From a virus (lineage: Duplodnaviria > Heunggongvirae > Uroviricota > Caudoviricetes): a stretch of DNA of 39,499 nucleotides. Location: IMG/VR virus record IMGVR_UViG_2563366900_000004; one strand, given 5' to 3'. Below are positions 33,001-36,000 of the stretch, in pieces. Each line of letters begins with the position of its first letter. The first letter of the stretch is position 1. A program made the position numbers.

Positions 33001-36000
33001 GTTAACAGCCTCACCACTCTAAAACACACAACAATAACCCGACCTTAGCGTCGGGTTTTCTTTTTCCAAAATATAAACCCATTAAATACAAAGCGTTATA
33101 AAAAACCAATTATATTTAGAACATTTTGTATTGACTCGATAAAGTACAAATCGTACTATTTAGCCATCAGCAGGACGCACTGACCACCATGAAGGTGAGG
33201 CTCTTAAAAATTAAGCCCTGAAGAAGGGCAGCATTCAAAGCAGAAGGCTTTGGGATTGGATGAATGAGCAGGCTGATGCTCGACCAATGTATAAACAGCG
33301 CTCATGGCAAGCAGTAACCAATCTGCGCCTCAAGACAGCGTCACTGGTAGTGCGGGCGCTCTAACCAGTAAGCCGGGGTTCAGCGCCGGCCATCCAATCA
33401 CCAAAGCTAACTGACAGGAGAATCCAGATGGATGCACAAACACGCCGCCGCGAACGTCGCGCAGAGAAACAGGCTCAATGGAAAGCAGCAAATCCCCTGT
33501 TGGTTGGGGTAAGCGCAAAACCAGTTAACCGCCCTATTCTCTCGCTGAATCGCAAACCGAAATCACGAGTAGAAAGCGCACTGAATCCGATAGACCTTAC
33601 GGCGCTGGCTGAATACCACGAACAGATTGAAAGCAACCTGCAACGTATTGAGCGCAAGAATCAGCGCACATGGTACAGCAAGCCACGCAGTGAAATGGGT
33701 GTGACTTGTGTTGGTCGCCAGAAAATGAAATTAGGCAGCAAACCACTTATTTGAGGTGATATATGGACAAGAAAATTAAATCATTGAAGCCAGGAATTGT
33801 TATCAGAGACATAAGTGGTGATTACGATACAGAGACATATGATATTTTATATGTGCATGCAGATGGAAAATGTCAGTATTCGAACGACATTTTTAATAAT
33901 AAAGGTGGTGCCGAAATTGCTGCCACCACAGTTAATAAAGAGTTAGTAGCTAACGAGTCGTGGGATTATTTTATGCCATCATCCACTTCTATGAACTGGA
34001 AAGTGGTTTTGTACATTCCATCATAATTGTAGCTGCCGTTCAAAAATGAAAGTAAATCTAACATCACAGGCCGCATAGTCGGCCTTTATTTTTAAGGTGC
34101 TATATGAAAATTAAAACTATGGGCGCAAGCCCATTGAGCGGTCGTATTTTTCAAGGAACATTAAACACTGAAAAAGGAATGTGGGTAGGAAAGAAAGAAG
34201 ATGTCACCGAGCAAGCGGTTAAGGCAGTAGCTGAACACCTGATGATAAAAGACCAGAAATACGCATACGAAACGAAGGATGGCAAATGGCTGATAATAAG
34301 CCATCAACTGGTTGATAAATTACCAGAAGAGTTTATTGCTGGTTAAATTCACCTTGGAACAAACAACAGAATAAACACTGCGCTGTGTATTCATTCCAAC
34401 GAGTGAATACACGGAGCAATGTCGCTCGTAACTAAACAGGAGCCGACTTGTTCTGATTATTGGAAATCTTCTTTGCCCTCCAATGTGAGGGCCTTTTTAT
34501 ATGCATACCAATAACGCTTCACTCGAGGCGTTTTCGTTATGCAATCAAACAGAAGGAGCATCCTATGCAACAGTTCGCTATTGCAGGGGCGGCATCGGTT
34601 CGCCCTTTCAACCCGATTTTATCGGTACAGCATTCACGAAAAAACATTTTAACCGGAGCAGACTTTAAACAACCAAGAATGAAAAGTTTGCTCGAAAAGC
34701 TTTGGGATATTTTGAAACAACAAGGCCGTCCATGAGTTTTACGGATAACTGGTCAGACGAAGAATTCATTCGTCAGATGAACAAAATGCTCAATCAGCAC
34801 AAAGAACAGGAGAAAGATGATGATTCTGACTCTGAATGATAAGCGTGAAATATCGCAAATAATCGCAAGTTTTACTGATGAAGATTACGAACGAATTAAC
34901 AGTGAAGTTGATCGCCTCTGCAAACGTTGCGACCCAATAAGCGAAATGCTTCGCTCATATAAACCAGATGAACACACTAAGGACGCTATCGACTGGCTGG
35001 AAGATGATGACTGTAACTATCAGGAAAAAGCCGCTGAATGGTTCTGGTATGCAATAACCGAAAGAGTTAAGGCTGAATATGCCTTCGCAATATTTAAACG
35101 CAGACACATTTTTGGAGAAGCAGCATGAGCAATATCGTTGAATTCGTTAAACAGCAAGAGCAGTTATTCTGCGGAGCATTGACTGAACAGACGGTGACAT
35201 GGGCTAAGGAAAGCCAGTTTGCAATTCAGTATTTCCAGAAAAACGATTACCTGGCTAAAACAGCACTGGCAAATCCAACCAGCGCACAGAACGCCATCAT
35301 CAATGTTGCGGCGATCGGCATCACCTTAAACCCTGCAAGCAAACTGGCTTATCTGGTTCCGCGCGATGGCATGGTTTGCCTTGATATCAGCTATATGGGA
35401 TTGCTCCATATTGCAATGGAGTCTGGTGTTATCTCATGGGGTCAGGCAAAACTTGTTCATGCTAACGATACCTATGAGTCAAACGGGCTTGATAAAGCAC
35501 CAACCCATAAATACAACGCCTTCGGTGATCGTGGTGATATCGTTGGCGTTTACTGCACAGTTAAGACGCCGGCAGGTGATTATCTAACGGAAGAGATGAG
35601 TCTGGCTGAAATTGAGGCTGTAAGGAAAACAAGCAAGGCAGCATTCAGCGATAAAGGACCATGGGTAAATCACTGGAATGAGATGGCGCGAAAGACGGTC
35701 GTAAAGCGTGCAAGCAAGTATTGGCCTAAGGCATCACGTCTTGATAGTGCTATTCACGTACTAAACGAAGAAGAAGGTGTATGGACTGAACCAGTTATGC
35801 CGCACAAATCAGAGGAAGATATCCGCGAAGATGAACGGAAACGCCAGCAGGAAATAACGGATAAAGCACAACTTCTTTGTGATGAAATGGCTCAGGCAGA
35901 AAACATGGATGATTTGAAGCGATATTTTGCAGAAGCATATCGCCTGACATCTGGAATGAAATTGCAGCAGAACATACAAGCCATTTACATAGAATGCAAA

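What the first reader, a model, noticed from the sequence alone, without database searches (positions are those of the whole stretch)
33763..34346. Two AT-rich early-left accessory ORFs, each with its own RBS and terminator
Directly after N lie two small genes (87 and 80 aa) that I cannot place in any family. They sit in the pL operon position where lambdoid phages carry host-takeover or exclusion genes (ral, sieB, ea genes), and are separated by intrinsic terminators, suggesting independently acquired modules.
Basis: inference. Interest (0 to 1): 0.45.

Follow-up and report, generated by a model that had tools for sequence, protein, structure and literature searches.

The report
Two swappable early-left phage accessory genes
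The two small genes after N are real, conserved phage genes of unknown function, each a separately swappable cassette in the highly variable stretch of the lambda-type early-left operon where lambda carries ral; this is an ordinary lambdoid feature.

Summary
Both ORFs exist exactly as described (33763-34026, 87 aa; 34104-34346, 80 aa). Each has a strong Shine-Dalgarno sequence and low GC (35% and 40%, against 46% for the window). Both are under purifying selection. ORF80 is Pfam DUF7446 / PHROG 1578. It occurs in lambda- and P22-like prophages and in many virulent Ackermannviridae. ORF87 is PHROG 33140, a small family found after N-like genes in temperate phages and in Klebsiella myophage KB57. 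Comparative DNA shows two independent cassettes, about 33768-34086 and 34087-34353, joined at short conserved linkers. Together they replace lambda sieB/orf28/ral. Among 80 contigs with near-identical N, at least 12 families occupy the first slot, with more than 60 gene orders. Only ORF87 carries a terminator-like hairpin. ORF80 has none; the next two lie in a conserved lambda-like intergenic segment. No separate promoter was found, so both should be silent in the lysogen and expressed from pL. ORF87 lies with N before the first terminator; ORF80 lies after it. Confident structure models match no solved fold. My best guess is small soluble binders acting during lytic growth, in counter-defence or host takeover. 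That guess rests on location and distribution only. Interest is low to moderate.

The parts
33131..33159 (+). pL-like sigma-70 promoter (TTGACT, 17 nt spacer, TACTAT). It is the only promoter-like site on the + strand upstream of the two ORFs.
   Evidence: Its position matches the lambda oL/pL layout.
33215..33229 (+). nutL boxB hairpin GCCCTGAAGAAGGGC, preceded by a boxA-like GCTCTTAA.
   Evidence: Read directly from the sequence. The minus-strand scan picks it up as a hairpin. Identity with the lambda nutL sequence is from my own knowledge; lambda annotates Nutl at the equivalent place.
33428..33754 (+). Antiterminator N (108 aa), lambda type.
   Evidence: Pfam N36 E 1.7e-26, PHROG 271; 94% DNA identity to lambda N.
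33763..34026 (+). ORF87, 87 aa, PHROG 33140. Soluble and mildly acidic (pI 4.9). Its Shine-Dalgarno GAGGTGA (33753-33759) overlaps the N stop codon.
   Evidence: Homologues. Family dN/dS median 0.15. Model pLDDT 85 with no fold match.
33768..34086 (+). ORF87 cassette as delimited by homology breakpoints. Left edge is the N-linker/start codon; right edge is the end of the terminator stem.
   Evidence: blastn breakpoints against L001-L005; junction sequences.
34068..34095 (+). Intrinsic-terminator-like hairpin AGGCCG-CATAGT-CGGCCT plus TTATTTTT. It is the first such site downstream of pL.
   Evidence: The same 3' arm plus T run follows Ral and other first-slot cassettes. Three of 6 distinct ORF87-cassette versions have uncompensated stem changes.
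34087..34353 (+). ORF80 cassette (RBS, ORF and 7 nt). It is absent as a block from L002 and L003. Edges are uncertain by a few bases because of the shared T run.
34104..34346 (+). ORF80, 80 aa, Pfam DUF7446 / PHROG 1578. Soluble, pI 8.0. Shine-Dalgarno AAGGTG at 34094-34099.
34354..34370 (+). Conserved inter-cassette linker TTGGAACAAACAACAGA (consensus TTGGmAyAAACAACAGA). In other phages it runs straight into the RBS of the next cassette.
   Evidence: Present in lambda after ral.
34354..34564 (+). Conserved lambda-like intergenic backbone (lambda ral-ea10 and ea10-cIII spacers, with ea10 absent). It carries a strong hairpin (34379-34417) and two terminator-like sites (34475-34492, 34513-34532). 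It is not part of the ORF80 cassette.
34565..34735 (+). cIII (56 aa), the next conserved pL gene.
   Evidence: PHROG 550 E 1e-22.

Best explanation
Shown. The two ORFs are genuine protein-coding accessory genes, each carried on its own short cassette. They lie in the hypervariable N-to-cIII segment of a lambda-type early-left (pL) operon and occupy the place of lambda sieB/orf28/ral. Cassettes in this segment are joined by short conserved linkers: the 3' end of N with GCAGCAAACCACTTATTTGAGG, the terminator 3' arm plus T run GGCCTTTATTTTT, and TTGGCAYAAACAACAGA(GG). These linkers carry the next gene's RBS and are the places where homology between phages breaks. Inferred expression logic. Neither gene has a promoter of its own, so both should be shut off by the repressor at pL in the lysogen and made only after infection or induction. 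ORF87 is translationally coupled to N and lies upstream of the first intrinsic terminator, so it should be made with N as an immediate-early product. ORF80 lies behind that terminator and should depend, at least partly, on N antitermination. Inferred function (weakest step). Both are about 9-10 kDa soluble single-domain proteins with no enzymatic or DNA-binding signature. They most likely act stoichiometrically during lytic growth by binding a host or resident-prophage protein, that is, counter-defence or host takeover as for Ral and P22 gp17, which use the same slot. My sub-confidences: real, independently exchanged cassettes 0.9; pL-only, lytic-phase expression 0.7; counter-defence or host-takeover binder 0.35-0.4.
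For: The genes are real and constrained, with strong RBSs. Cassette boundaries are defined. Lambda synteny is shown. In a slot survey of 80 contigs with N at least 97% identical, the first gene after N was Ral (20), Nmad5 (14), three unknown families (11, 11, 9), ORF87 (2), ORF80 (1) and others, with more than 60 gene orders. The named occupants are Ral (annotated as antirestriction), Nmad5, P22 GP17 (Pfam: superinfection exclusion gene product 17) and DUF2528/Ea10; only Ral and GP17 carry names that imply a function. Between pL and 34836 no other promoter-like site lies on the + strand, and no terminator-like site lies between pL and 34068. The operon has a lambda-type N and nutL. Both families also occur in strictly virulent phages. 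DUF7446 is found across Ackermannviridae (Vi01, Det7, CBA120-like, Dickeya and Klebsiella members). The ORF87 family is found in the Vequintavirinae phages KB57 and KpS8, in a run of small genes. That argues for a role in lytic growth rather than in the lysogen. Both proteins are hydrophilic, with GRAVY about -0.4. All 120 listed DUF7446 hits (of 182 found) are stand-alone proteins under about 95 aa with no fused domains. Published work agrees that early-left operons of lambdoid and P22-like phages are highly mosaic (PMC2629481) and that exchange at short conserved boundary sequences is an established model (PMC3233612).
Confidence: 0.5

Rival explanations
1. Prophage-expressed exclusion or lysogenic-conversion genes (moron, sieB or rex style). 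They would be transcribed in the lysogen from their own promoters and protect the host from other phages.
For: AT-rich composition is typical of morons. A terminator follows ORF87. Neighbouring positions in relatives hold RexAB, P63C-domain and SieB genes.
Against: No promoter-like site lies upstream of either ORF on the + strand. ORF87's RBS overlaps the N stop codon, so it is part of the N transcript. There are no hydrophobic segments. Nothing credible was found in PADLOC. Homologues occur in virulent phages that never form lysogens. The known exclusion genes of this region lie between cI and N, or on the strand opposite to N, and not in this cassette row.
Confidence: 0.1
2. Host-physiology or lysis-lysogeny modulators of the Kil or cIII type. 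These would be small early proteins that inhibit a host housekeeping target (division, proteases, transcription) rather than a defence system.
For: They share an operon with cIII and are of similar small size. In related phages Kil lies just downstream in the same operon. DUF7446 is conserved across a whole virulent family, which suggests a common host target. ORF80 has a block of invariant residues (D33, V34, A38, V42, E44, H45, W27), consistent with a conserved interface.
Against: No similarity to Kil, cIII or other known modulators. Both genes are rare in E. coli prophages (8 and 45 of 5426 genomes, against 2296 with this N region). They are freely replaced by unrelated genes, which is more typical of arms-race cargo.
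Confidence: 0.2
3. ORF80 (DUF7446) is a DNA- or nucleic-acid-binding accessory factor of phage DNA transactions, for example a helper of recombination, replication or DNA modification.
Confidence: 0.12
4. The ORFs are non-functional remnants or chance reading frames in AT-rich spacer DNA.
For: Small size, AT-rich, no known function.
Against: Full-length conservation down to 42-49% identity for ORF87 and below 50% for ORF80, across different phage types. dN/dS is well below 1. Structure models are confident, with pLDDT 85 and 90. Both have strong RBSs.
Confidence: 0.03

Closest known systems
Lambda Ral (Pfam PF11058) as the first cassette after N, for example in HK544-type phages
   Same: It uses the same slot directly after a near-identical N gene (20 of 80 contigs). 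It is a small soluble protein. Its cassette ends in a terminator-like hairpin whose 3' arm plus T run (GGCCTTTATTTTT) is the same as that after ORF87, followed by the same linker.
   Different: No sequence similarity to ORF87 or ORF80 (no Ral hit at E<=1). Ral's antirestriction activity is documented; nothing is known for these two.
DUF7446 proteins of P22-like Salmonella phages (SE1 group) and of Ackermannviridae (e.g. Vi01_147c)
   Same: ORF80 is a full-length member: 97% amino-acid identity to the SE1-group protein and 55-61% to Ackermannviridae proteins. It has the same length and the same invariant motif. In SE1 it also lies in the pL operon, after ral and the same terminator/RBS junction.
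   Different: In Ackermannviridae it sits among small genes between the capsid and tail modules of a virulent 157-kb genome, not in a repressor-controlled operon. No member has a known function.
PHROG 33140 / KB57_201 and unnamed 91-aa proteins of temperate enterobacterial phages (L018-L031)
   Same: ORF87 aligns over its whole length at 42-49% identity. The temperate homologues occupy the same place, after an antiterminator-like gene and before RecT, and also end at a terminator-like hairpin.
   Different: The window's version is a divergent, rare E. coli branch (8 of 5426 genomes). It has a different C-terminus and a 41-nt spacer before the hairpin.
Boundary-sequence (linker) model of lambdoid mosaicism (Susskind and Botstein; Clark et al. 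2001 on HK620, recalled from my own knowledge; summarised in PMC3233612)
   Same: Homology breakpoints fall at gene boundaries on short conserved sequences shared by unrelated cassettes.
   Different: Nothing materially different; this locus is a clean example. I did not test whether the linkers act as recombination targets or are kept because they carry RBS or terminator function.
Morons (Hendrix): promoter plus gene plus terminator units expressed from the prophage
   Same: AT-rich small genes inserted between conserved genes; ORF87 is followed by a terminator.
   Different: No promoter of their own; both are embedded in and co-oriented with the pL operon; ORF80 lacks a terminator.

Membership tests
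Pfam DUF7446 (PF24233) / PHROG 1578, for ORF80 | HMM score above the curated gathering threshold over the full model | tested here: met
   100.2 bits against a cut-off of 24.1, model positions 2-70 of 70. PHROG 1578 E 1e-40.
Pfam DUF7446 (PF24233) / PHROG 1578, for ORF80 | Stand-alone protein of about 75-90 aa with the conserved motif ...G.I..GT..T...W....DVT..A..AVAEH | tested here: met
   All 13 invariant columns of the 39-sequence alignment are present in ORF80. The 120 listed hits are single-domain and under about 95 aa.
PHROG 33140, for ORF87 | Full-length HMM match | tested here: met
   E 3.4e-51, residues 1-87 against profile positions 1-88 of 88.
Ral antirestriction (PF11058) | Sequence match to the Ral HMM | tested here: not met
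   No hit at E<=1 for either ORF, whereas the slot-mate family 2 scores 162 bits.
Ral antirestriction (PF11058) | Alleviation of type I restriction in vivo | not testable with these tools
   Needs plating of unmodified phage on EcoKI/EcoBI hosts with and without the ORF.
P22 GP17 (PF17420) and lambda Ea10/DUF2528 (PF10800) | Sequence match to the HMM | tested here: not met
   No hit for either ORF. Both families are present as other cassettes in the same slot in related phages.
SieB/Rex-type prophage exclusion genes | Own promoter or cI-transcript location allowing expression in the lysogen | tested here: not met
   The only + strand promoter-like site upstream is pL. The ORFs lie downstream of N, not between cI and pL.
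SieB/Rex-type prophage exclusion genes | Similarity to known defence proteins or membrane topology | tested here: not met
   PADLOC gave nothing for ORF87 and only a marginal DndE hit for ORF80. GRAVY is -0.37 and -0.39.
Moron (promoter-gene-terminator unit) | Own promoter and own terminator flanking the gene | tested here: not met
   No promoter for either ORF. A terminator follows ORF87 only, and that terminator is shared with other cassettes.
N-dependent delayed-early genes of a lambda-type pL operon | Location downstream of pL, nutL and N, and behind an intrinsic terminator | tested here: met
   Met for ORF80: pL 33131-33159, boxB 33215-33229, N 33428-33754, terminator 34068-34095. ORF87 lies before the first terminator, so it fits the immediate-early class instead.
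N-dependent delayed-early genes of a lambda-type pL operon | Transcription that requires N in vivo | not testable with these tools
   Needs transcript mapping in N+ and N- backgrounds.
DndE (DNA phosphorothioation protein), considered for ORF80 | Reproducible sequence or structural similarity to DndE | tested here: not met

The most novel reading that the evidence does not exclude
DUF7446 (ORF80), and perhaps the ORF87 family, could be founding members of new small-protein inhibitor families with previously unseen folds. They would neutralise a widespread enterobacterial defence system or host factor. That would explain why unrelated phage types (lambda-like, P22-like, Ackermannviridae, Vequintavirinae) all keep them, and why ORF87 is placed so as to be made together with N as the very first phage product.
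Probability: 0.25. Interest if true: 0.55.

Novelty: new member of a known kind. Interest (0 to 1): 0.27.

Why it matters
If either protein proved to be a counter-defence or host-takeover factor, it would add a new family, with a fold unmatched in the PDB, to the phage anti-immunity repertoire. It would also give a function to DUF7446, which is conserved in many therapeutic-candidate Ackermannviridae phages. As it stands, the locus is a clean worked example of linker-mediated cassette exchange in the N-cIII segment of lambdoid phages. It also gives a short list of at least 12 alternative first-slot families that could be screened together. The architecture itself is not surprising to a specialist.

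Tried and rejected
1. Sequence searches for function. Pfam, PHROGs, NCBIfam, PADLOC and PDB sequence searches, by single sequence and by profile, gave only family names without function.

3. DndE lead for ORF80. The PADLOC hit was rejected because no other DndE model or structure comparison reproduces it.

5. Giant-protein hits for ORF87 in the representative search (P0069, P0075-77). These are tandem-repeat, low-complexity translations whose many weak stretches add up, so they are false positives.

6. Are the two ORFs related to each other? hhalign probability was 0.1%.

7. Are the two ORFs functionally linked? They co-occur in the window (identical in IMG/VR contig 2531839145_000006) and, as distant homologues, in L018 and L029. 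No complete E. coli genome has both. Both are rare, so the expected joint count is about 0.1. There is no evidence for linkage.

8. Hidden RNA genes. Rfam at E<=1 gave only two chance-level hits.

9. Domain fusions of DUF7446 as a clue to function. None were found among the 120 listed hits.

10. Literature. No paper mentions DUF7446 or phrog_1578.
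Full report
**Setting.** The window is a complete-looking lambdoid genome. Its late genes are HK620-like, 96-97% identical over about 64% of a 24-kb query. Its immunity and early-left region is lambda-like. On the + strand the order is:
- a cI-type repressor at 32283-33005 (Peptidase_S24 plus HTH);
- a strong bidirectional terminator at 33036-33057;
- a pL-like promoter at 33131-33159;
- a nutL boxB hairpin GCCCTGAAGAAGGGC at 33215-33229 (identity with lambda nutL is from my own knowledge);
- a lambda-type N gene at 33428-33754 (Pfam N36 E 1.7e-26; 94% DNA identity to lambda N);
- the two ORFs of the finding;
- cIII at 34565-34735 (PHROG 550), a PHROG 3486 gene, and RecT at 35125-36036.

**Observation.** Both ORFs are at the stated coordinates.
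- ORF87 starts 8 nt after the N stop. Its Shine-Dalgarno GAGGTGA (33753-33759) overlaps that stop codon.
- ORF80 has AAGGTG at 34094-34099, 4 nt before its ATG.
- GC content is 35.2% and 39.9%, against 46.4% for the window.
- The terminator scan finds one site between the ORFs: stem 34068-34085, then TTATTTTT. It finds none between pL and that site.
- After ORF80 the next sites are 34475-34492 and 34513-34532.
- No promoter-like site lies on the + strand between pL and 34836.

The 'two AT-rich ORFs with RBS' part is therefore confirmed. The 'each with its own terminator' part is not.

**The genes are real.**
- ORF80 homologues were collected from 80 viral contigs. Against the window they give dN/dS mostly 0.03-0.3 wherever dS is measurable.
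- The ORF87 family gives a median dN/dS of 0.15 over 64 pairs.
- Both keep their full length down to about 42-50% identity.
- AlphaFold2 models are confident: ORF80 pLDDT 89.9 with topology beta3-alpha-beta2; ORF87 pLDDT 85.0.

**Family placement.**
- ORF80 is a typical member of Pfam DUF7446 (100 bits against a cut-off of 24) and PHROG 1578.
- The family is confined to stand-alone proteins of about 70-94 aa from Enterobacterales, Aeromonas and Shewanella prophages. No domain fusions appear among the 120 listed hits.
- DUF7446 is also present in 283 phage records, most of them virulent Ackermannviridae (Kuttervirus, Klebsiella and Dickeya members). In Vi01 it lies among small genes between the capsid and tail modules.
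- ORF87 matches PHROG 33140 (E 3e-51) but no Pfam family.
- An exhaustive phmmer scan of 1.8 billion representatives found only about ten true relatives of 80-117 aa. The large hits in that list are tandem-repeat artefacts.
- Its relatives are 91-aa proteins at 43-49% identity in 14 temperate-phage contigs. In most of them a repressor or N-like gene lies upstream and/or RecT lies downstream. A further relative at 42% identity is in the Vequintavirinae phages KB57 and KpS8, in a row of small unknown genes.

**Cassette structure.** I compared 33300-34900 with relatives by blastn and read the junctions.
- The ORF87 block runs from its start codon (33768 is the first non-shared base) to the end of the hairpin at 34086.
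- L002 and L003 continue from there directly into window position 34354. So 34087-34353 (RBS, ORF80 and 7 nt) is a discrete block that they lack.
- Conversely, L004 (P22-like SE1) and L005 carry the ORF80 block from 34081 onward, behind a different upstream gene (ral, or an 83-aa unknown). That upstream gene ends in its own hairpin AAGGCTGCC-TGAT-GGTGGCCTT plus TATTTTT.
- The two blocks thus overlap in GGCCTTTATTTTT.
- In other contigs ORF80 follows N directly through the linker GCAGCAAACCACTTATTTGAGG. That same linker precedes ORF87 in the window and orf28 in lambda.
- Downstream of ORF80 lies TTGGAACAAACAACAGA (34354-34370). In other phages this sequence runs into AGAGGTGAAnATG of the next cassette.
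- Relative to lambda, window 34354-34502 equals the ral-ea10 spacer (lambda 34071-33923, 95% identity) and 34503-34588 equals the ea10-cIII spacer.
- ORF87 plus ORF80 therefore replace lambda sieB/orf28/ral, and ea10 is absent.

**How variable is the slot?** I surveyed 80 viral contigs whose N is at least 97% identical to the window's.
- The first gene after N is Ral in 20, an Nmad5-domain protein in 14, three unknown families in 11, 11 and 9, ORF87 in 2 and ORF80 in 1, with several others besides.
- There are more than 60 different gene orders between N and cIII/kil.
- In complete E. coli genomes this N region occurs in 2296 of 5426. ORF80 occurs in 45 and ORF87 in 8, and no genome has both.
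- The exact combination occurs in IMG/VR contig 2531839145_000006, which is 100% identical here.
- This matches the published picture of highly mosaic early-left operons (PMC2629481). It also matches the boundary-sequence model of exchange (PMC3233612; Clark et al. 2001 on HK620, from my own knowledge).

**The terminator.**
- Terminator-like hairpins at the 3' end are typical of first-slot cassettes: Ral 18/20, Nmad5 9/14, fam8 8/11, fam11 8/9, GP17 5/6. They are not typical of ORF80 (0/3) or several other inner cassettes.
- The 3' arm and T run are shared, while the 5' arm differs with the cassette.
- The element is therefore better read as a positional feature of the operon, and a linker, than as evidence that each gene arrived with its own terminator.
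- It is not strong: about -10 kcal/mol, z -1.9. Three of six distinct ORF87-cassette versions have uncompensated stem changes.

**Expression logic (inferred).**
- With pL as the only promoter, a lambda-type N and nutL, and the first intrinsic terminator after ORF87, ORF87 should be made with N from the immediate-early transcript.
- ORF80 and everything downstream should depend on N-mediated read-through.
- Both should be silent in the lysogen.
- Rho-dependent sites and weak promoters cannot be excluded with these tools.

**Function (weakest part).**
- The two families are unrelated to each other.
- What remains is context. The proteins are small and soluble. They sit in a hot-swap slot whose only characterised occupants are Ral and P22 gp17. 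Both families are also kept by virulent phages.
- I therefore favour a lytic-phase binder acting in counter-defence or host takeover, at about 0.35-0.4.
- The alternatives are a Kil/cIII-like host modulator (0.2), a DNA-transaction accessory role for ORF80 (0.12) and prophage-expressed exclusion (0.1). Non-functionality is effectively excluded.

**Verdict.** The 'no family' statement is wrong. The function stays unknown. The architecture is a textbook case of lambdoid cassette mosaicism, so novelty and interest are modest. The main open value lies in DUF7446, a widely conserved phage protein with no solved-fold match and no literature.

Noticed in passing
window 34379-34417 (+): A perfect 14-bp stem with a 4-nt loop (GUGUAUUCAUUC-CAAC-GAGUGAAUACAC inside a longer helix). 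It folds at -23.8 kcal/mol, z -7.6, with no U run. It is conserved in the lambda ral-ea10 spacer and in most relatives. It could be an RNA processing or stability element of the pL transcript. Rfam gives only a chance-level miRNA hit.
   Followed up: partly
window 34419-34514 (+): A 31-aa ORF, MSLVTKQEPTCSDYWKSSLPSNVRAFLYAYQ, with its own GGAG. The terminator-like hairpin 34475-34492 lies inside it. In other phages the same head is open in frame with at least 6 different downstream bodies (families 6, 24, 27, 28, 39 and 45). It is probably a conserved leader with real starts further in, not a shared domain.
   Followed up: partly
L032-L111 (slot survey) and L018-L031: Many unrelated cassette proteins end in ...KAA or ...AA, because the stop codon sits in the loop or 5' arm of the terminator-like hairpin: Ral 18/20, Nmad5 9/14, GP17 5/6, DUF2528 8/8, and the 91-aa ORF87 homologues. 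The linker thus imposes the C-terminal residues.
   Followed up: partly
L032-L111, first gene after N: An Nmad5 (nucleotide-modification-associated domain 5, PF18757) protein is the second most common first-slot occupant (14 of 80). Three further unknown families (156, 83 and 107 aa) take 11, 11 and 9 slots. This gives a ready-made set of alternative cassettes for comparative screening.
   Followed up: partly
L018 3001-3904 and L029 3001-4748: Two other temperate-phage lineages carry both an ORF87-like gene (43-44% identity) and a DUF7446 gene (40-49%) in the same operon, though not adjacent. The sample is too small to call linkage.
   Followed up: partly
window 8000-32000 versus 33100-34600: The virion and replication genes are HK620-like, i.e. 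of the P22-like podovirus type. N, nutL and the cIII region are lambda-type at 94-95% identity. This is a chimera typical of the group.
   Followed up: no
window 33036-33057: A strong bidirectional terminator-like hairpin sits between the repressor gene and pL (-12.4 kcal/mol, z -4.8). Relatives carry rexAB, a P63C-domain gene or other cargo between cI and pL, whereas the window has none.
   Followed up: no
proteins P0069, P0075, P0076, P0077: Large tandem-repeat translations score as 'homologues' of ORF87 in the representative search because many weak stretches add up. They also collect spurious Pfam hits. This is a caution for repeat-inflated E-values.
   Followed up: yes
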